Shown here piece by piece: positions 1,688-10,929 of a DNA stretch of 64,000 nt (position 1 is its first letter; the number at the start of each line of letters is the position of its first letter). The notes under the pieces were generated by a model that was not told where the DNA came from, ran no database searches, and worked only from the letters and a program-made list of their open reading frames with translations. A program made the position numbers and the translations under genes. Source of the stretch: Malacoraja senta (taxonomy: Eukaryota); the NCBI GenBank assembly GCA_038087875.1, contig CM075987.1, positions 23,624,001 through 23,688,000 on the forward strand, given 5' to 3'.

Positions 1688-2074
1688 CAAAGATCCTATA
1701 GCGGATAGACCACTCCTTCTAAATGCAATGGGCTGACGTGTAGTACGCAACGGAGCGGAACGTGGGCCTTTTTTTCATCCATTTCAGTAACCCGACCCGA
1801 CCCGACCCGCAGTGTAATCAACGTTGCGGGGGAACAGTTTGTGTTAATAAATTATGATTCTGAAAATGAGAAGATTTTTTACCGAAGAACTTTAATTTTT
1901 ACGAGGATGTTTCCGTAACCGGCTTCCGTCTCCGCACTAGTATCTTTGCTAGTATCTATGGGATCTTTGGTGTGGAGACGGAAGCCGGTTACGGAAATGG
2001 ATGCATGAATCTGCCCGTGACCGTACTACGTATTTTTCGTCGAGTGATCTATCTTGCTCGCTATAGGATCTTTG
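1688..2074. mobile_element. Non-autonomous DNA transposon (P or hAT superfamily), 387 bp
   Basis: 16-bp perfect TIR CAAAGATCCTATAGCG. 8-bp TSD CTTCAGAC at 1680-1687 and 2075-2082. Internal inverted repeat ~1909-1997. Confidence 0.88.
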
Positions 2075-2570
2075 CTTCAGACTGATGTGAGGGTGGGGGG
2101 GGGGGGGGAGAACAAAGGAAGAGGTGGAGCCCGTGGGCTGAGGGAGAGCTGAGAAGGGGAGGAGAAAGTAAGGACTACCTGAAATTAGAGGTCAATGTTC
2201 ATACTGCTGTGTGATTTACATGAGCATAAGTCAAAGGAGCAGATTTAGGCCATTTGGACCATCGCGTCTGCCATTCCATCACAGCTGATCTGTTTTTCCT
2301 TCAACCCCATTCTCCTCCCCTTAACCTCTGACGCCTTTCTGCAGCATATTTCAGCATTTTCTGATCATATTTCTAAAATGACAAGTTATTTCTATCCCTC
2401 ACTGTCATTTCAATTTTCAAACGTTTCATCCACCACCACCTGCCATTTTCTCGACATGAAAAACCACAAGGGTACTTCCTAGTTCTATTTAGTTTCGTTG
2501 AAAATCCCCCCCGTGAAAATAATCTTCCTGTTTCCACAAACCTTGGCCTGGTTTAAAGTTGCTGCCCCAG

Positions 2571-3068
2571 TCAATAGACAATAGGTGCAGGAGTAGGCCA
2601 TTCGGCCCTTCGAGCCAGCACCGCCATTCATGTGATCATCCCCAATCACTACCCCGTTCCTGCCTTCTCCCCATATCCCCTGACTCCGCTATTTTTAAGA
2701 GCCCTATCTAGCTCTCTCTTGAAAGCATCCAGAGAACCTGCCTCCACCGTCCTCTGAGGCAGGGAATTCCACAGACTTACCACTCTCTGTGAGAAAAAGT
2801 GTTTCCTCGTCTCCGTTCTAAATGGCTTATTCCTTATTCTTAAACTGTGGCCCCTGGTTCTGGACTCCCCCAACATCGGGAACATGTTTCCTGCCTCTAG
2901 TGTGTCCAAGCCCTTAACAATCTTATATGTTTCAATGAGATACCCTCTCATCCTTCTAAACTCCAGAGTGTACAAGCCCAGCTGCTCCATTCTCTCAGCA
3001 TATGACAGTCCCGCCATCCCGGGAATTAACCTTGTAAACCTACGCTGCACTCCCTCAATAGCAAGAAT
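2571..3068 (-). mobile_element. CR1/HER1-like LINE 3' end
   Basis: IEGVQRRFTRLIPGM...LWNSLPQ; TATTGTC tail. Confidence 0.88.
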
Positions 3069-4078
3069 TGCTATTCTTGACAGTCCTCCTGCCCCTTGCC
3101 CCTTGCCCCTTGCCCAGCCCACCACAGAACCAGGCAATCGTGATCTGACCCCACTCCTGCGCAGACACCTCAGATAAAAGCTCCAGGCTTGACATTCATC
3201 CTCTCCGGCATCCAGAACTCCCCTTGTCGTGGAAACCATATTCTCTCATCTTGTTCTCTCGCCTCTGACACTGGGAGTTTTGGTTGGTTGTTGAAAGAAA
3301 CAGCGTGGAAAGATACAGGCCCTTCGGCCCACCATCGATCACCCATTCACGCTAGTTCTATGTTATTCCACTGACACATCCACTCTCTCCACACCCGGGG
3401 GCCAATTCACCGACAAACGATGTGTGGGGGGGGGGAGGGAGGAAATCCACGCAGTCACAGGGGGAGCGTGCAAACTCCACACATACAGACAGAACCAGAG
3501 GTCAGGATTGAACCTGGGCCTCTGGCGCTGAGAGGCAGCAAGCACTGTGTCGCCCAAGGTGGAATCGTCACTTGAGCCTCTCCAATAAAACCCAGTTTAT
3601 TCCCAATCTTATTCATGGTACAATGAATGTCAACCCAATCTCAATCTTGATCCAATACCCAACCACCGCTCCTCTGAGGCCATTCCTCGCCCCTCCCTCA
3701 TTTCCCTGTCATGGCAAATGTTGTTAATGTGCAGGAAGGAACTGCAGATGCAGGGTTAAACTGTAAATAGACAGAAAATGCTGGAGTAACACAGCGGGTC
3801 AGGCAGCATCTTGAGAAAGGGAATAGGTGATGTTTCGGGTTGAGACCCTTCTCCCCAACCCCAAGTCCTGCCCCCCCCCCCCACACACACACACACACAC
3901 ACATTCTCTCCCTGATCCAATTCTCCATCTCGCCCCCTCCCCTGGCTCAGGGAAGACAGGAACACTCAGCGGGTCGGGCAGCATCTCTGGAGAGGAGCAC
4001 CATGAAGGTTTCAGGTCGAACTCGTGTTGCCAGCTCTGGTAACCCCCCTCCCTCCCCCCCCCCCCCCCATCTTCTCAC

Positions 4079-4296
4079 CTCTCTTGGGAGCTGGCGTTAC
4101 GGCACTGCGCCTTGCTCCCCTCCGCACCCCCGGCCGAAAGACAACTTCTATCCCCAAACTCCAACTCCTGCGCCAGCGGTTGTATTACGATGGCCAGGAC
4201 ATAGCGATCAAGCTGGTTCAGCAGATAGGCGGCGAGGAGACAGCAGAGAACATACACAGGGTATGTGCCCGCTTGGCAGAAGCCCAGAGCTCCCAT
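4079..4296 (-). CDS. First coding exon of an MFS (spinster-like) transporter; remaining exons not found in the window
   Basis: ATG at 4296. Hydrophobic TM1 followed by LLNQLDRYVLAIV (MFS TM1 N-x-x-DR motif), then a Cys-containing loop with an NAS sequon. Donor AG|gtgaga at 4079/4078. CpG-rich surroundings at 4090-4520. Confidence 0.78.
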
Positions 4297-4535
4297 CGAC
4301 CGGAGCAGAGGCGCCCGAGCAGGTTCAACCGGAACGTCTCACTCTCTCAACCCCGGGACGGGAACAAAGCCCGCAGCTTTCTCGCGTTTGCAGAAACATC
4401 CACCCCCCCTCCCCAACCAACCACCGCGGAGGCAGACGTTCAAATCTCAGGTTAATTTCACTTCCCGAAACGCTGCAGAGACAAGTGTAGGAAAGTCCAA
4501 CAAAGTCGATGGCGGCCGAGGACAATGCTACTTAC

Positions 4536-4568
4536 CAAAGATCCCATAGCACCTCTATAGGATCTTTG
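4536..4568. mobile_element. 33-bp TIR-only remnant of the same family
   Basis: CAAAGATCCCATAG...CTATAGGATCTTTG with 8-bp TSD CTACTTAC at 4528-4535 and 4569-4576. Confidence 0.85.
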
Positions 4569-7394
4569 CTACTTACATCGACAAAACAAAATATTCCGCA
4601 TGGAGTCAGGTGGTGGTGGTGGGTGGGGGGATCCCGGGAGAGTCAGCTGAGATAGTGAAACTTTTAGTGCTTCAGCGAGGGGCAGCTGTGGAATGGAGAA
4701 CTCGGCAAAACACTCAGCTTGGAGGGAAATGTGGATAGAGTGGATGTGGGGAGGGATGTTTCCACTGGTGGGAGTCTAGGACCAGAGGCCAGAGCCTCAG
4801 AATAAAAAGGCATACCTTTAGAAAGGTGATGGAATTTATTTAGTCAGAGGGTGGTGGCTGTGTGGAATTCATTGCCAAGTCAATGGATAGTTTTAAGGCG
4901 GAAATTGACAAGATTCTTGATTCTTCTTCTTGCGTATGGCATACACAGCCTAAAGTTGTGGGACAACTTGTTCTATTTGATCTTATTGTTATTGTGCACA
5001 CCAGGTTGATTGCATTCGTCGAAACAGTGCGGACCACGTGAAGGTTGCAATCTCCCACCCCAAAGATTCTTGATTAGCGCGGGTGCTAGGGGCTGCAGGG
5101 CGAAGGCAGAATGGGGTTGAGAGGGAAAGAACGGTTGAGAGGGAAAGATCAGCCATGCTGGGAAGAAGGAAGGAAGAGGCGGAGACAGTATGCTGTGGGA
5201 GAGCTGGGAAGGAGGGAGAATGCAAGGACTACCTGAAATTGGAGGTCAATGTTCATACCGCTAGTCCTCCAATTTGCGGTGGGATTCACTCTGGCCATCT
5301 TAGTTTGGTTTATTGTCCTGTTGCGAGCTATCCAGTCATAACCCCAGGGAGGAGGAGCCAGCTGGGAGAGGTATCATCCGCTCTATGATCTTTGGGTACC
5401 ATGGCAGAATCCCTCAACTTGGACAGGAGGAAAGAGAACCTCACTCCTTCAACTCCCAGAAAAATCATCGGTGGAGATTTGCAGAACCGGGTGCTGTGCT
5501 ATTCTCAGCTGCTCTACAAAACTTGTACGAACTTTAGAAAAGTACATCACAGGAAAAGGCCCTTCGGCCCACTGCGTCTGTGCTGAACACAACTGAGTTT
5601 AGTTCATTGTCACGCGCAGCGAGGTACAGTGAAAAGCTTCCTGTTGGGTGATATCCAGTCAGCAGAAAGACTATACATGATTACAATCCAGCCGTCCACA
5701 CTGTACAGATATCGGATAAAGGGAATAGCATTTAATGCAAGATAAAGTCCAGTAAAGATGGTGAGGTCTCCAATGAGGTAGATATTAGCTCAGAACGTTG
5801 TCTAGTTGATCATCGCCCATCACTGAACTCAAATAATGTAGGCGTTGGAAACCAATTATATCAGCCCAAACTATTGTTCCCCAAAATATTGTACAAAGTT
5901 CGGCCTTCGTAAACTCTTGTCAAACTACTGAATATTAAATTATGTTCCAAATTCAGTTAGTCCAAGATATTATCTAGGACTGTGAAATTAATTTTTGTGT
6001 CCAATGCAGTAAAGGTATCACTATACACAAGTACGTAGATAATATTAGATAAGCATCTCAGATACAGTCCAACTGTGTATCAGTAGTGCACTGAATCAGT
6101 AGTCGCCAGTTTGGTGCCATTTTCAAGTCCCAGTTGTTGTAGATAGATGCAGGGATCTTGATCTGACCATGAAGGTCTGTTGTCCTGGTGGCGTTGCTGG
6201 GTCGGCCTGGCCAAGCGTAGCCGTTGGTGCCCTCCGCCACTGCTCCACTGCTGTAGACTATGTGTGGTCCACACGCTCGGCGCCCGGTCCAGCCGAGCCG
6301 CAGGGTCTCTAGCAGCCCACTCCACCATCGATACAGTGCACTGCCTCCCGCAGCCAGTCCTCCAACCGGCTCCTTCCACTCTGAGCCAGGTCTCCCGGTG
6401 TGTTCCCGGTCCGTGGCGCAGTGTCCTCGATCCTCCCGGGTGGGTCTTCCATCCACGGCAGTCGGGTCTCCGGGCGAGCTCCTAGTCCGCGGCGCAGGGT
6501 CCTTGATCCGCAGCGGGCGAGTTGGGCCTACCAGGTGGGCATGTCCCCGGTCTCCAGCGGACAGGTAGGGCCCCATCAGGTGGGACTTACCAGCACCATA
6601 CCACACCGGTAGCAACGTTACACCTCAATACTTTTCACCCATGCTACAGGGACAGCCCTGCACCTATTCAGATCCCCGGTGTAGAGGGACAGCAACACCC
6701 ACCAGTGAGGCCCTTGGAGAGTCAAGACCAACCCATTGAGCAGCGCCACAATGGGATTTGCATGCACCAGTATCGCACCGAGACAAAAAAAACTGTGCAG
6801 CCAAGGTGACCTTAGATAGTCATCTGAAGGACCCACTGGGATTAATGTGGCCATTATGCAAGGGTGGGTGAATTTTACACATAGAACACAGCTCATAATC
6901 AGATCCCAGTTGCTGTTTCACTGCTACCTGGTTAAAATAATACAAAAGCAAGTTTTATGTTCAAACCTCTTGTATTAACAGGAAATCAAGGGGAAATTAC
7001 ACCAACACCTCAGAGCTGGAAGGACTCAACCCCAGCATTCCAGGAGAGATCATCACTACTGCAACACTATTCACAGGTAATGGAAAGATTTCCACAGTGC
7101 CTACTTATTACTTGGTACTGTCGTCAATTCAAACTAAAATATTAAAAGATACTGGCTCCACAAAATCATGAGGCTCTGTACAAACCATGACCAGGAAAAT
7201 CTGTCGGCCGGTGGTCAGAGGAAAACCTAAGGGGAGGGGAGGAAGGGAGGGAGGGGGGAGAGAATTTCAGCTCCAATCTCCGTACAACTCTTCCATCTTC
7301 CACATCACTCCCGACATCACCTTGCTTGAAGCTCCCTCAGTTTCCAGCAGTTAGCAGGACCCTACAGCTATCAGCCATGGCCCTGCCATGTTGC

Positions 7395-7400
7395 TTTATT
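7395..7400 (-). promoter_or_regulatory. Candidate polyadenylation signal (AATAAA) for WDR5
   Basis: First canonical minus-strand AATAAA noticed downstream of the stop codon (~1.6 kb 3'UTR). Unverified. Confidence 0.25.
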
Positions 7401-8942
7401 CCGGGAGATCAGACAAGGAAGATCCAAGTCCAAAACCTGGTCTGTAGCTTCAGCTGATTCCCAATAGTGATATGCGTTGGCGAATGAAGGATCTGTTCAG
7501 GAACACGGACCCTGGCTGATTTTAACCCCCGCCCCCCTTGCCTTGCCAAGTGGCATTAAGACCACAGGTGAGCCTCACCTGCTATAAACCAGGGCAGGTG
7601 GGGTGAACCTGGTGCATGCTGTCTCATACAGCCGCACAATATGAGGCGCAATCACTCACACCACCCTCCGCAGACCTGCAATGCAAAACATCCGATGCCA
7701 GTGCGCCCCCTGTTCAAGTACACCTTCAGGAGTGCTCGCTTATAAGAATGCTTTCTCTCAATTTGGGTCTGTGCAATGGAGATAGAATCACTATTATCCC
7801 CCCATATTCCAGAAATGAAATGTAGAAGAGACCTATCAAATCCAATGCCTTCAATGTTCATTGCCCCAGGTAAAGCCTACTTCGACCTCATGGCACCTAG
7901 CATAAGGGAGGCAGGTGAGGGGAGAGAACGAAGAGTACGTCCAGTCACAAGGAACAATCACCTTCGACACTGCTTTGAAATTGTGATGCATTGGAAGTGT
8001 GAGGGACTTATAACTCTGCTCCTCCCAGCTAGCTGCAACACACAGCACTGCAGATGATCAATACTGTGTAAGGGGAGGGGGGGGGGGGAGGGGAATGATA
8101 CCAGCACGCAATCTCGCCAGAGCTGTTTCTCTCAAACCCCTCGGGCGAGGATAGTTAGGAATCCCAATGGAGACCATCATATAGCACCAGTCCTAAAATA
8201 GCTCCCCCACCGACCATGCCCAGTATAGCTGGCAGCACTGCCTATAATGCTATGTTGGCTAGAGAACCACTGGGAACATTCTGCTTGAAGGGAGCCGGAG
8301 GGGCACAATTGCCAACCTGAATCTCTCTGGATGGTAATACTATCTGATCCTGGGAGAAGGGATGGCCAATCCAGACTCCTGCAGCAGGACCTCCAAGGTC
8401 CCAAGGCCAGAGACAGTGAGTGCTCATTCTAAGTGGTATGTTAGTTCAGGGTCAAGGCCATAGCAGCACTTGAGGTAAAGGCAGGGAATTGAGGAGGGCA
8501 AGAGGAAAGGGCAATGGCAGACAATCGAATACCAAGAGATACACAAGAGGAGGAATTTTAAAGACAAATAAAAAGAGAGTTGACTGGCTAACTTTAAAAC
8601 ACAGCCAACCGTCAATAGCAAGTTTATATAAAAAAAAAACATTCCACTACCAACTAAACCCACTAATTAAAAGAGAATCTTCACAAGAATGGACAGGGGA
8701 TAAAGTCACAAGTGATTTGGTCACAAAAAAAAAACTTTAGACGGGGGAGTTTGTGAGAGTGCGTTTCTGCGCACACGTGGGCGTGTTTTAAGCATACAAT
8801 AACTCCCTAAGTGTTATGAGTCCGCAGTAAAAATGGGATTTGTTCCGACGCTGCCGCAGGGTCTGTAATGCTGCGTCACCAGTTTGAGCAGGGACTGCAC
8901 AGTCTCAGACGTCAGGACTACCAGGGGCCTGTCTCTGTGTCC

Positions 8943-8969
8943 AGGCAGGCAGGCAGGCAGGCAGGCAGG
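8943..8969. repeat. (GGCA)n microsatellite in the WDR5 3'UTR
   Basis: Directly visible ~40 nt downstream of the stop codon. Confidence 0.9.
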
Positions 8970-9009
8970 GACAGGGCACAGTTCTCTCGGTGGTAATGCT
9001 GCTTGCTCT

Positions 9010-9219
<210 letters not shown>

Positions 9220-9344
9220 TTAAAGAGACGTTCGTCAAAACAGAATGGACTTACAACTGAGGATCAAACAACAACTAGTGGAGAAATTCAGGAAGTCAGG
9301 TAAAGAGATGGCCGATGTTTCAGGTTGAGACATATATTGAGTTT

Positions 9345-9755
9345 TTTTCGGCACTGGGCCTTTACTCACTAGAGTTTAGAAGGATGAGGGGGAACATTGA
9401 AACTTACCAAATAGTGAAAGACCCAGATAGAGTGGATGTGAAGAGGATGTTTCCACTAGTGGGAGAGTCTAGGACCAGAGACCATAGCCTCAGGATAGGA
9501 CATACCTTTAGAAAGGAGATGAGGAGGAATTTATTTCGTCAGAGGGTGGTGAATCTGTGGAATTCATTGCCACAAAAGGCTGTGGAGGCTAAGTCAATGG
9601 ATATTTTTAACGTGGATATTGATAGGCCCATGATTATTTAAGGGTATCAAGAGTTATGGGGAATAGTGTTGAGGATGAGATAGATCAACCATGATTGAAT
9701 GGCAGAGTAGACTTGATGGGCCGAATGGACTAATTCGGCTCCTACAACTTATGAA
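9345..9755 (+). mobile_element. CR1/HER1-like LINE 3' end
   Basis: GLYSLEFRRMRG...LWNSLPQKAVEA. Confidence 0.82.
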
Positions 9756-10929
9756 TTGATGAGTCTACATCAGGTTTGAGAGTGTAAAGGAGAGATCGGC
9801 AGTATAAAGAGAGGAGGGGGACGATCGAGGCAGGAGCTGACAAATGATAGGTGGTTCCAGGAGAAGAAGGGTTGATGGGCAGATGCCAGAGTCAGGTGGG
9901 GGAAGCGACGGAGGCTGGCAGATAGTTAGGGGAGGCAACAAAGGGCTGCAGACTATGCACTCTGATATAAAAAGTGCTTTGTAGAACCAGATGAGCTATG
10001 GGATGCTGTGCAGATGGGAACAGAGGGGGTGGGGAAAAAGAGCAGGCATACAAACGCACACTCTTAGGAATGATCCTAATCTCAAGTCAGAGCTGTGTGT
10101 TTAGGGGCTTTGGGTTGAGGACATTATGTTCCAGAATGAAGGAGCTATCAATGTCCAGAACATGAGACAGAGCCCGAATTAGCACAAGGAAATTCAGGAA
10201 CTATGCCATGAAGCGCATCTCCACATGCATTGCATAATGGGTTTTGCCATTTATAAGCTCGGTGCTTCTGAGTAGACGGCACTGGGAATCAAGCAGGATG
10301 TTAATGGGATCTCATTAACCACAGTGACACAATGGGGCCGCTGCCTCAATGCCAAATAGTGGCTCGAGCCAAATCCTGACCTCCATTGCGATCTACAAAG
10401 TCTTAAGTATATGGAAGTGGTTGAATCTGGGGGAGTTGATGGAAACGTGGGAAGAATTAAATGGAATTAGTGCAAATAGGTGGTTGATGGCAAATGGCCA
10501 GTTTACGCGCTGTGGCTCCAAAATGACATACAGAATAACTGAAAGACTGGAGAATGCACCAATGATAGATATAATGTACACAAAACCCCCACAACACTTT
10601 GTGTAGCTCAAGGCTAAGTCTTCATTTAGGTCACTATTATAACATCACTGGGTGGTGCAAGAGCACTCCAGGTATAATGGAATTTTGTGGCAATTCTACA
10701 GCAAAGTCGGCCAGAAAAGCATGTTACAAAACACGTTTTAAAATTCCACATCAGTATTACGCTGGCCACAATTCCAGCACAAGATCCACTCTGACCCTGC
10801 CTGCTCCCTTCAGTGCGAGACCAGTTCCCTTTCCTACATCTAAGAATGCAACTAGCGATGCATCCTCAAATGTTAAATTCCAACTTCTCGTCTTTGTGCC
10901 ATATTTATTCCTTTAACCTACTGATTTCA

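What the first reader, a model, noticed from the sequence alone, without database searches (positions are those of the whole stretch)
4528..4576. 33-bp TIR-only remnant between perfect 8-bp TSDs, the size of a P-element excision footprint, just upstream of the MFS gene
Seen: CTACTTAC + CAAAGATCCCATAGCAC + CTCTATAGGATCTTTG + CTACTTAC, i.e. about 17+16 nt of the two ends. Known: P transposase makes staggered cuts that leave 17-nt 3' overhangs of TIR sequence at the donor site, and end-joining leaves up to ~17 bp of each end between the TSDs. hAT excision hairpins the flanks and normally leaves no TIR. Inference: this is a germline excision scar showing P-type cut-and-paste activity. It sits ~240 bp upstream of the MFS ATG, which echoes the known promoter preference of Drosophila P.
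Basis: partly seen in the sequence, partly recalled or inferred. Interest (0 to 1): 0.75.

Follow-up and report, generated by a model that had tools for sequence, protein, structure and literature searches.

The report
P-transposon excision scar upstream of gene
The 33-bp inverted-repeat stub between two identical 8-bp repeats is the scar left when a P-type "cut-and-paste" transposon jumped out, one of well over a thousand such scars in this fish genome that together record where the transposase cuts.

Summary
Window 4528-4576 reads CTACTTAC, then a 33-bp inverted-repeat stub, then CTACTTAC.

The stub carries the terminal inverted repeat (TIR) of a MITE family. An intact 387-bp copy lies at window 1688-2074, and the genome holds 1354 exact TIR ends.

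The TIR lineage belongs to the P superfamily. [quoted passage not shown]

TIR-only remnants are common, and their lengths stop abruptly:
- 18-28 bp: 1506 sites
- 29-38 bp: 238 sites
- 39-48 bp: 24 sites
- 49-78 bp: 17 sites

Of 95 sampled remnants, 47 have perfect TSDs and 76 have at most one mismatch. None of 95 control 8-mer pairs is perfect.

Remnants are two TIR stubs joined at palindromic microhomology (TA, TATA, GC), as in published Drosophila P repair junctions. The longest stub ends at ...AGC, which is 18, 19 or 20 nt in three TIR variants. This scar is 15+20 nt overlapping by GC.

The P-type excision-footprint reading is supported. It is a new member of a known kind. The promoter-preference idea was not tested.

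The parts
4528..4535 (.). Left copy of the 8-bp target-site duplication, CTACTTAC
   Evidence: It is identical to 4569-4576 and is the only other occurrence in the window. It fits the family target pattern (G/C)TNNNNA(C/G).
4536..4568 (.). 33-bp TIR-only remnant (excision footprint): two TIR stubs facing each other
   Evidence: It is decomposed against the family TIR (row L001: 15 + 20 - 2).
4536..4550 (+). Stub 1: the first 15 nt of the TIR (CAAAGATCCCATAGC), with 1 difference from the consensus (C at position 10, a variant also seen in other copies)
   Evidence: The C10 variant also occurs at window 1956-1969 and in L008, L016 and L119.
4549..4568 (-). Stub 2: the first 20 nt of the TIR read on the minus strand (CAAAGATCCTATAGAGGTGC), with 2 differences from the GG-type TIR. 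It shares GC (4549-4550) with stub 1.
   Evidence: It ends at the same ...GC position as the longest stubs genome-wide.
4569..4576 (.). Right copy of the 8-bp target-site duplication, CTACTTAC
1688..2074 (.). Intact 387-bp MITE of the same family, the kind of element whose excision leaves such a scar. It is flanked by the TSD CTTCAGAC at 1680-1687 and 2075-2082.
   Evidence: It is 82-88% identical to other copies, and its positions 17-70 are 88.9% identical to the right end of the autonomous P element (E=1.3e-14).
4138..4296 (-). Context only: putative first coding exon of the neighbouring gene (ATG at 4296). It weakly resembles the first helix of a spinster-like MFS transporter.
   Evidence: translation. 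(6e8j, E=0.015). (no Pfam hit).

Best explanation
A non-autonomous P-superfamily transposon inserted here in the germline and duplicated the 8-bp target CTACTTAC. It was a MITE of about 390 bp with roughly 33-bp TIRs beginning CAAAGATCC. A P/THAP9-type transposase later excised it.

As with the Drosophila P element, that enzyme cuts the transferred strand at the transposon tip and the other strand well inside the TIR. Each donor flank therefore kept its TSD copy plus a single-stranded 3' tail of TIR sequence. The two tails have the same sequence, so they can pair only at self-complementary motifs. Here the terminal GC of one tail (about 20 nt) paired with the internal GC (positions 14-15) of the other. 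The flap was trimmed, the gaps filled and the ends ligated, giving 15+20-2 = 33 bp between intact TSDs.

Shown:
- the structure of the site;
- the family and its P-type autonomous relatives;
- the genome-wide population of TSD-flanked TIR-only remnants, its sharp length ceiling and its microhomology joints;
- that the flanks here are single-copy and the scar is present in two samples.

Inferred:
- that an element once sat at this exact site;
- the cleavage position;
- the end-joining pathway.
For: 1) Family. An intact MITE with a TSD lies in the window. The genome holds 1354 exact 26-27-nt TIR ends (715+639, control 0).

2) Superfamily.
- PF12017 gives 124 matches among 150 scored candidates.
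- Four full elements of 7.6-8.6 kb have termini CAAAGATACTAGAGGAACAAGAT... and perfect TSDs CTTAGCAC, CTCCAGAC, CTATTCAG and CCCTCTTC.
- A 769-aa open frame carries Tnp_P_element HTH, TNP-like RNaseH_N (4e-40), the GTP-binding insertion domain (4e-16) and RNaseH_C. A THAP domain (1.4e-10) lies in an upstream frame.
- MITE positions 17-70 are 88.9% identical to the element's right end.

3) Length ceiling for CAAAGATCC...GGATCTTTG (reversed-pattern control 0 in every search).
- 18-48 bp: 1768 sites
- 29-48 bp: 262 sites
- 39-48 bp: 24 sites
- 49-78 bp: 17 sites
- 79-108 bp: 13 sites, mostly two neighbouring scars

4) Replicate in the sister TIR, CAAAGATAC...GTATCTTTG. There are 841 sites of 18-48 bp (control 29). 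Of the first 50, 49 are 34 bp or shorter, one is 36 bp and none is 37-48 bp.

5) TSDs. Of 95 sampled remnants, 47 have a perfect TSD and 76 have at most 1 mismatch. For the next 8-mers outward, 0 of 95 are perfect. At least 39 flank contexts are unrelated.

6) Joints. Among 56 distinct remnants the longest stub peaks at 19 nt (13) and 20 nt (16), both ending ...AGC. One reaches 21 nt and none is longer under the matching rule. The length classes 28, 33 and 36-38 equal 15+15-2, 15+20-2 and 19/20+19/20-2. The 22-bp class equals 13+13-4 (TATA).

7) Published junctions have the same anatomy. In Drosophila P{wa}, repair junctions are TSD plus up to 17 nt of each TIR, joined at AT or TA. One junction recurred in 14 isolates, and some carry templated insertions (PMC2895639, Table 1 passages). 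The 17-nt staggered cleavage, 31-bp TIRs and 8-bp TSDs are stated in PMC7776569 (passages).

8) This locus. The flanks are single-copy in read contigs. One contig of run X5 covers 4300-4775 with no difference, and run X6 contigs cover 4300-4686 with none listed at the scar. One contig of a second organism bridges 4302-4616 with no 41-letter skip.
Against: No filled allele was seen at this locus, so the excision here is inferred by analogy with the family.

The longest stubs are 18-20 nt (17-19 if joints are read as blunt) rather than the 17 nt measured for Drosophila P. The overhang model therefore needs a somewhat different cut position.

A few remnants break the ceiling. L104 is 9+38 nt. There are 17 sites of 49-78 bp, and several of the 24 sites of 39-48 bp carry filler. 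Another process, such as abortive gap repair, must therefore also operate.

The 33-mer of the common class is identical at 4 unrelated flank contexts (5 sites). On its own this could suggest a mobile unit.

Site counts are inflated by later amplification of host repeats that carry scars. The length histogram is therefore one of sites, not of independent events.

No autonomous element with exactly the CAAAGATCC tip was found. Four long TIR pairs that I checked carry no transposase.

No control family from another superfamily was scanned.
Confidence: 0.8

Rival explanations
1. Internal deletion unrelated to a staggered cut. A MITE at this site lost nearly all of its interior, by replication slippage or by abortive gap repair after excision followed by joining at microhomology. 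The TIR-only state is then simply the extreme of a deletion series.
For: Deletion derivatives longer than the ceiling exist. There are 17 sites of 49-78 bp, several keeping 25-40 nt of one or both ends. L104 is 9+38 nt. True 93-98-bp elements are present. Palindromic motifs in a TIR also form direct repeats between the two ends, so microhomology joints by themselves do not separate this process from overhang annealing.
Against: The density of sites falls about tenfold between 29-38 bp (238 sites) and 39-48 bp (24 sites), and again to 17 sites across 49-78 bp. Random breakpoints predict a continuum. The longest stub stops at the same motif in three TIR variants. Usable palindromic dinucleotides (AT, TA) lie only 4-6 nt further in and are almost never used.
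Confidence: 0.1
2. Mini-MITE. The unit of about 33 bp is itself mobilised by the transposase and inserted here as such, making its own TSD.
For: The sequence CAAAGATCCTATAGCTCCGCTATAGGATCTTTG is identical at L002, L003, L004/L005 and L007, each with a different 8-bp TSD. Identical 36-bp and 37-bp remnants also occur at unrelated loci (L098 and L126; L118 and L124).
Against: Only 8 sites in 1.94 Gb lie within 3 mismatches of this 33-mer, so it is not an amplified family. Remnants come in at least 14 lengths with many different joints, which would need many separate mini-families. Identical junctions recur in independent Drosophila excisions (14 isolates of one junction; PMC2895639), so identity does not require mobility. 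Drosophila P needs at least 138 bp and 216 bp of its two ends, and Anopheles P-MITEs keep somewhat under 100 bp per end (PMC1562414 passage). The large copy numbers of the 22-, 27- and 28-bp classes are explained by shared flanks, that is, passenger amplification.
Confidence: 0.06
3. A hAT-family remnant or a chance palindrome. The 8-bp TSD and the nTnnnnAn-like target pattern are also typical of hAT elements.
For: The TSD length and the target pattern (T at position 2 and A at position 7 in 83% of cases) match hobo (GTNCGNAC / NTNNNNAN) as well as P (GTCCGGAC), according to Table 4 of PMC3276498.
Against: The termini are shared with elements that encode a P-type, not hAT-type, transposase. 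Reversed-pattern controls gave 0 matches. No shuffle reached the observed number of TIR matches in the window.
Confidence: 0.02

Closest known systems
Drosophila melanogaster P-element excision footprints (end-joining repair of the 17-nt 3' tails left at the donor site)
   Same: The layout is TSD, TIR stub, short palindromic microhomology or filler, TIR stub, TSD. Both TSD copies are retained, the same junction recurs in independent events, and templated insertions occur occasionally. The source is PMC2895639 Table 1 passages, and PMC7776569 passages give the 17-nt staggered cleavage.
   Different: Here the scars are natural, fixed and counted genome-wide in a cartilaginous fish, not recovered from a laboratory excision assay. 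The longest stubs are 18-20 nt (17-19 if blunt) rather than 17, and they end at one motif in three TIR variants. The TIR sequence is unrelated to that of the fly element.
Zebrafish Pdre2 / THAP9 P-like transposons
   Same: They are vertebrate P-superfamily elements with 8-bp TSDs, many internally deleted copies and an active THAP9-type transposase (PMC10983969 and PMC7776569 passages).
   Different: Pdre2 has 13-bp TIRs (CATACCTGTCAAC) plus distant 12-bp subterminal repeats. The family here has TIRs of about 33 bp beginning CAAAGAT. In the passages I read, excision by zfTHAP9 gave larger flanking deletions, and no natural TIR-stub scars were described.
P-derived MITEs (Anopheles gambiae P-MITEs; BuT5 of the Drosophila repleta group)
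   Same: They are short non-coding elements that share termini with an autonomous P element and are flanked by TSDs. This matches the 387-bp MITE at window 1688-2074 and its 7.9-kb relative. I read PMC1562414 passages and saw only the abstract listing for PMC3698922.
   Different: Those papers describe the mobile MITEs. The word 'footprint' occurs 0 times in PMC1562414. The object here is what is left after such an element leaves.
hAT excision footprints (Ac/Ds, hobo, Tol2)
   Same: They have 8-bp TSDs and a similar GT....AC target pattern (PMC3276498 Table 4).
   Different: hAT excision hairpins the flanks, and its footprints are altered TSD bases without TIR sequence. For this I saw only an abstract listing for PMC2921059; the rest is recalled. 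Here up to 20 nt of each TIR remain, and the transposase is P-type.

Membership tests
P superfamily DNA transposons (P element / THAP9-like) | Transposase with an RNase H-like catalytic domain split by a GTP-binding insertion domain | tested here: met
   L079:4602-6911 (769-aa open frame) carries TNP-like_RNaseH_N (4.1e-40), TNP-like_GBD (3.8e-16), TNP-like_RNaseH_C (8.6e-09) and Tnp_P_element HTH (7.5e-07), all above the curated cut-offs. This holds for the autonomous relative. The parent of this scar is gone.
P superfamily DNA transposons (P element / THAP9-like) | N-terminal THAP DNA-binding domain | tested here: met
   The frame L079:3882-4190 matches THAP (PF05485) at E=1.4e-10, 42.3 bits against a cut-off of 23.9, over profile positions 29-87 of 87. 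It lies upstream of the catalytic frame inside the element. Splicing between the two frames is inferred.
P superfamily DNA transposons (P element / THAP9-like) | 8-bp target-site duplication | tested here: met
   This site has a perfect 8/8 TSD. All 4 autonomous copies have perfect TSDs, and so does the window MITE. Of 95 remnants, 47 are perfect and 76 have at most 1 mismatch, against 0 of 95 perfect in the control.
P superfamily DNA transposons (P element / THAP9-like) | The remnant's TIR belongs to the same lineage as the termini of a P-transposase-encoding element | tested here: met
   The termini align over about 50 nt: CAAAGATACTAGAGGAACAAGATGCGCCACTCAGCGAAAAA... against CAAAGATCCTATAGCGAGCAAGATAGTCCACTCGACGAAAAA.... 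MITE positions 17-70 are 88.9% identical to the element's right end, E=1.3e-14. No autonomous copy with the exact CAAAGATCC tip was found.
P superfamily DNA transposons (P element / THAP9-like) | Long staggered donor cleavage (17 nt in Drosophila P) that leaves TIR sequence on the flanks | tested here: inconclusive
   The indirect evidence agrees in kind. TIR stubs stay between the TSDs, and the longest stub is 18 nt in the sister TIR and 19 or 20 nt in the G and GG TIR types if joined at GC. Read as blunt joints, these become 17, 18 and 19 nt. The cleavage itself was not measured.
P superfamily DNA transposons (P element / THAP9-like) | Palindromic GT....AC-type target motif (GTCCGGAC in Drosophila P) | tested here: inconclusive
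   Across 29 distinct perfect TSDs, symmetrised, T is at position 2 and A at position 7 in 83%, and G or C at positions 1 and 8 in 81%. This is compatible with P but equally with hobo (PMC3276498 Table 4), so it does not discriminate.
hAT superfamily | hAT transposase associated with these termini, and footprints without TIR sequence | tested here: not met
   The elements bounded by this TIR lineage encode a P-type transposase. The remnants retain up to 20 nt of each TIR. The genome has many hAT dimerisation-domain hits, but none was linked to these termini.
Independently mobile mini-MITE | Many near-identical copies of the unit at unrelated sites | tested here: not met
   Only 8 sites in 1.94 Gb lie within 3 mismatches of the 33-mer. 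The high-copy length classes share their flanks, so they are passengers in other repeats.

The most novel reading that the evidence does not exclude
The scars act as a natural, genome-wide footprinting experiment on a vertebrate P transposase. On this reading, second-strand cleavage is not measured as a fixed 17 nt from the transposon tip. It is set by the inner TIR motif and falls at ...AGC|AAGATAG. This gives 18-, 19- and 20-nt tails in three TIR variants that differ by 1-2-nt indels between the tip and that motif. The long staggered cut, so far measured only for the Drosophila enzyme, would then be an ancestral property of the P superfamily, positioned by sequence recognition. The 98-99% identical, TSD-flanked autonomous copies with open frames suggest the enzyme could be tested directly.
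Probability: 0.35. Interest if true: 0.6.

Novelty: new member of a known kind. Interest (0 to 1): 0.45.

Why it matters
The unusually long staggered cut of P transposase has been measured only for the Drosophila enzyme, as stated in the passages read. In this genome, hundreds of independent natural scars, in two sister TIR families, show the same signature. This extends the mechanism to a vertebrate P family by sequence evidence alone, and it gives a precise, testable prediction of the cut position.

There are three practical consequences.
- The scars mark sites where a transposon once sat. Repeat annotation misses them, so cut-and-paste activity is undercounted.
- Scars carried inside other repeats give a relative timing of repeat amplifications.
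- The apparently intact autonomous copies are candidates for a new vertebrate transposon tool.

For the gene next door, the scar is a small fixed indel (33 bp plus the 8-bp duplication) about 230 bp upstream of the start codon. There is no evidence of any effect.

Tried and rejected
- Exact-tip autonomous element. I looked for an autonomous element with the exact CAAAGATCC tip among TIR pairs 1.5-3.7 kb apart (L128-L131). A tblastn with the P transposase found nothing. These loci are MITEs with inserts or neighbouring MITEs.
- First P-transposase loci. The loci fetched with 1.5-kb flanks held no CAAAGATCC motif. The termini appeared only after fetching 10-20 kb, and they start CAAAGATAC.
- hAT control family. 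I tried to delimit a hAT family as a control by running PF05699 on the genome and fetching four loci. Those copies are 99.6-99.9% identical over the whole 8 kb, with no boundary and no TIR found. No other-superfamily control was therefore run.
- Gene identity. Pfam on the putative first exon and on a 196-aa frame gave nothing. Only a weak PDB sequence match remains.
- Earlier notes of this scan. None exist for this genome.
- Read contigs in the scar's own bins. These bins are swamped by other copies (depth 1,200-12,000 against 25-47). I could not read whether the second organism has the identical scar. The tables also do not place the 13 missing letters of its bridging contig.
- Chance palindrome. 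Rejected on the shuffles and reversed-pattern controls.
- Literature. Four searches for natural P-type scars or P elements in cartilaginous fishes found no such report. This library lacks most subscription journals. I opened no supplementary files.
Full report
**1. The observation**

One search shows CTACTTAC at 4528-4535, the 33-bp string CAAAGATCCCATAGCACCTCTATAGGATCTTTG at 4536-4568, and CTACTTAC at 4569-4576. The outer 14 nt of the 33-mer form an inverted repeat with one mismatch.

The tool reports the direct repeat as 10 nt (TGCTACTTAC). The TIR ends in TG and the left flank happens to end in TG. The 8-nt register is the one that holds throughout the family.

The 14-mer with up to 2 mismatches occurs 5 times in the window against 0.72 expected, and 0 of 100 shuffles reach 5. 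The 8-mer occurs only at these two places in the window.

**2. The family**

The other three TIR matches in the window belong to an intact 387-bp MITE at 1688-2074. Its ends are CAAAGATCCTATAGCGG... and ...CGCTATAGGATCTTTG, and it is flanked on both sides by CTTCAGAC.

Longer remnants and intact ends give the full TIR. It is about 33 nt and comes in two versions that differ by one base:
- CAAAGATCCTATAGCGGAGCAAGATAG... (GG type)
- CAAAGATCCTATAGCGAGCAAGATAG... (G type)

A typical element has one end of each type, 365-400 bp apart. The genome (1.94 Gb, 6182 contigs) holds 715+639 = 1354 exact 26-27-nt ends, with a reversed-pattern control of 0.

**3. The superfamily**

A scan of the genome with Pfam PF12017 gave 124 matches among 150 scored candidates, some in open frames of up to 790 aa. 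No TIR motif lay within 1.5 kb of 30 of these hits.

Comparing 20-kb stretches around four copies, which are 97.7-98.9% identical, delimited elements of 7,597-8,555 bp. Their termini are CAAAGATACTAGAGGAACAAGATGCGCCACTCAGCGAAAAA... and ...CCTCTAGTATCTTTG. Their perfect 8-bp TSDs are CTTAGCAC, CTCCAGAC, CTATTCAG and CCCTCTTC.

Inside lies a 769-aa open frame with Tnp_P_element HTH, TNP-like RNaseH_N (4e-40), the GTP-binding insertion domain (4e-16) and RNaseH_C. An upstream frame carries a THAP domain (1.4e-10).

The termini are plainly the same lineage as the MITE's. The two align over about 50 nt, and MITE positions 17-70 are 88.9% identical to the element's right end at E=1.3e-14. I did not find an autonomous copy with the exact CAAAGATCC tip. 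The link to the P superfamily is therefore through a sister family.

**4.

The table gives genome-wide counts for CAAAGATCC-N-GGATCTTTG. The reversed-pattern control was 0 in each search.

| Length class | Sites | Sites per length | Source |
|---|---|---|---|
| 18-48 bp (all) | 1768 | - | |
| 18-28 bp | 1506 | about 137 | |
| 29-38 bp | 238 | 24 | |
| 39-48 bp | 24 | 2.4 | |
| 49-78 bp | 17 | 0.6 | |
| 79-108 bp | 13 | 0.4 | |

Most of the 79-108-bp sites merely span two neighbouring short remnants.

In the first 50 sites of the 29-48-bp search, the lengths were 29:1, 30:1, 31:6, 32:6, 33:10, 34:1, 36:4, 37:8, 38:9, 40:1, 46:1 and 47:2. In the first 50 of the 18-48-bp search they were 20:2, 22:27, 26:2, 27:9, 28:4, 31:1, 32:2, 33:2 and 38:1. 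The ceiling is sharp and lies at 38 bp.

The sister TIR gives an independent replicate. CAAAGATAC-N-GTATCTTTG has 841 sites of 18-48 bp (control 29). The first 50 lengths are 20:1, 22:1, 25:1, 26:1, 27:1, 29:4, 30:1, 31:3, 32:22, 33:4, 34:10 and 36:1, so nothing falls at 37-48 bp. The 49-78-bp class has 100 sites against a control of 66, and it is dominated by one amplified 77-bp unit and one 51-bp composite unit.

**5. Are these insertion sites, and how many events?**

I fetched flanks for 95 remnant sites:
- the 8 sites;
- 49 of the first 50 sites;
- 46 of the first 50 sites, where 4 were not fetched.

The TSD is perfect at 47 sites and has at most 1 mismatch at 76. The next 8-mers outward are never identical, and only 1 of 95 pairs has 2 or fewer mismatches.

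Many sites share their flanks:
- Nearly all 22-bp remnants are two scars (TSDs GTTTTCAG and GTCGGTAG) inside one repeat family that later amplified.
- The 27-bp and 28-bp classes are likewise one scar each.
- Most 38-bp and some 37-bp sites sit 22 bp apart in another repeat.

These patterns are seen. A loose flank clustering leaves at least 39 unrelated contexts among the 95 sites. Site counts therefore overstate events several-fold, and I estimate hundreds of independent scars, not thousands.

Even so, perfect-TSD singletons occur at 20, 26, 31, 32, 33, 36, 37, 38, 40 and 46 bp. A 36-bp scar with the TSD GTCGGAAT even sits inside the autonomous P element.

**6. The joints**

I decomposed 56 distinct remnants against the two TIR versions, allowing up to 2 mismatches. 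The longest stub peaks at 19 nt (13 remnants) and 20 nt (16 remnants), which are the positions where the G and GG versions read ...AGC. One remnant reaches 21 nt and none is longer by this rule. L104, which is really 9+38 nt, escapes the rule.

The length classes follow from pairing of self-complementary motifs shared by two identical tails:
- GC at positions 14-15 and 19-20 gives 15+15-2 = 28, 15+20-2 = 33, and 19/20+19/20-2 = 36, 37 or 38.
- TATA gives 13+13-4 = 22.
- TA gives 20.

The 39-48-bp remnants are mostly two stubs of 20 nt or fewer plus filler, and the filler often repeats nearby TIR sequence.

In the sister family the maximal class is the 34-bp palindrome, 18+18-2, or 17+17 if read as blunt. 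The overhang is therefore bounded between 17 nt and the next unused palindromic dinucleotide, which lies about 4-6 nt beyond AGC. Its end tracks the motif AGC|AAGATAG across three TIR variants, at 18, 19 and 20 nt. The bound and the tracking are inferences from the joints.

**7. This scar**

By the same rule it is 15 nt (4536-4550, with the C10 variant seen in other copies) plus 20 nt (4549-4568 on the minus strand, 2 differences) sharing GC. This is the commonest architecture of the 33-bp class.

Its flanks are single-copy in read contigs, where the depth equals one contig outside the scar. One contig of run X5 covers 4300-4775 with no difference, and two contigs of run X6 cover 4300-4686 with none listed at the scar. 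X5 may be the sample the assembly was made from.

A 629-letter contig from a differently labelled organism (run X1) bridges 4302-4616, with 226 letters to the left of the scar and 40 to the right. It has 25 substitutions, about 8%, and 23 gap letters. Ten of those are an insertion behind 4412, and the tables do not place the other 13. No joint was reported, and a 41-letter skip for an empty site cannot fit in 13 letters.

The scar, or part of it, therefore probably predates the split of the two organisms. This fits a germline, fixed event. The tables do not show whether the other organism's copy is identical.

**8. Comparison with what is known**

In Table 1 of PMC2895639 (passages), the sequenced repair junctions after P{wa} excision have exactly the anatomy seen here. 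They are TSD plus up to 17 nt of each TIR, joined at AT or TA. One junction was recovered in 14 isolates, and some carry templated insertions. Identity of scars at independent loci is therefore expected and is not evidence of mobility.

P-like elements in vertebrates are known from zebrafish (Pdre2/THAP9: 13-bp TIRs and 8-bp TSDs). P-derived MITEs are known from Anopheles.

Four searches of the paper library returned no report of natural genome-wide P-type scars, nor of P elements in cartilaginous fishes. The library omits most subscription journals, so this is weak evidence of novelty.

The target pattern (G/C)TNNNNA(C/G) matches both P (GTCCGGAC) and hobo (GTNCGNAC), according to Table 4 of PMC3276498. 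It does not discriminate between them.

**9. Rivals**

- Internal deletion unrelated to the cut explains the rare long remnants but not the tenfold step or the common stub end.
- A mobile mini-MITE is contradicted by the low copy number (8 sites), by the many joint types and by passenger amplification.
- hAT origin is contradicted by the transposase.
- Chance is contradicted by the controls.

**10. What remains open**

- No filled allele was seen at this locus.
- The exact cut position was not measured.
- The census is by site in coarse bins plus two 50-site samples from contig C1.
- No other-superfamily control was run. My attempt to delimit a hAT family failed.
- The promoter-preference idea was not tested. 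It rests on one weakly supported gene start, an ATG at 4296 whose product matches an MFS first helix at E=0.015.

**Verdict**

The numbers need adjusting: 15+20 nt here, and ceilings of 34 bp in the sister family and 36-38 bp in this one. It is a new member of a known kind. Its added value is that the genome-wide scars predict the cleavage position of a vertebrate P transposase.

Noticed in passing
L079+L084 (G000:C1:237356300-237376299), element at 2387-10280; also L083+L085, L082+L086, L081+L087: There are four copies of an autonomous P-superfamily element, 7.6-8.6 kb long and 97.7-98.9% identical, with perfect TSDs. They carry an open 769-aa catalytic frame and a THAP frame, and the genome has at least 124 PF12017 hits. 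The family looks young and possibly still active.
   Followed up: partly
L029-L047 (for example G000:C1:6901348-6902562): One repeat family carries two 22-bp scars (TSDs GTTTTCAG and GTCGGTAG), 230-1100 bp apart beside a (TG)n tract, and it has been amplified many times. The scars predate that amplification, so they give a relative timing. The host repeat was not identified.
   Followed up: partly
L079 3053-3088: A 36-bp TIR-only scar (CAAAGATACTAGAGGAGC...TATAATCTTTG) with the TSD GTCGGAAT sits inside the autonomous P element and is shared by all four copies. A family member therefore once inserted into its relative and left again.
   Followed up: no
window 1909-1990: Inside the 387-bp MITE, a 28-nt inverted repeat (TTTCCGTAACCGGCTTCCGTCTCCGCAC and its complement) brackets a short block containing CTAGTATC twice and a partial TIR end (...TATGGGATCTTTG at 1956-1969). 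It may be an older nested scar or a rearrangement.
   Followed up: no
window 4725-4800: Summed contig depth jumps from about 47 to between 30,000 and 790,000 in all four runs. This marks the edge of a very high-copy repeat, also present in the second organism.
   Followed up: no
G000:C14:3841965-3842040: A 76-bp remnant has two normal TIR stubs enclosing about 44 nt of TTAGGG-like telomeric repeats. This may be captured filler at an excision break.
   Followed up: no
L093, L096, L101 (G000:C1:89160766, 94006111, 145619129): The same host-repeat site (TSD CTCTCTAC) carries remnants of 29, 30 and 34 bp in different copies. Either small indels arose after amplification or independent events hit the same target.
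   Followed up: no
L079 213-2309: A 698-aa ORF with a reverse-transcriptase domain (RVT_1, 8.7e-40) lies just outside the left end of the P element. It is an unrelated neighbouring retroelement.
   Followed up: no
L132, L133, L135 (unplaced contigs C1895, C3844, C1872): Stretches of 8 kb around a hAT dimerisation-domain hit are 99.6-99.9% identical across different unplaced contigs, with no boundary in reach. They are large recent duplications or assembly redundancy.
   Followed up: no
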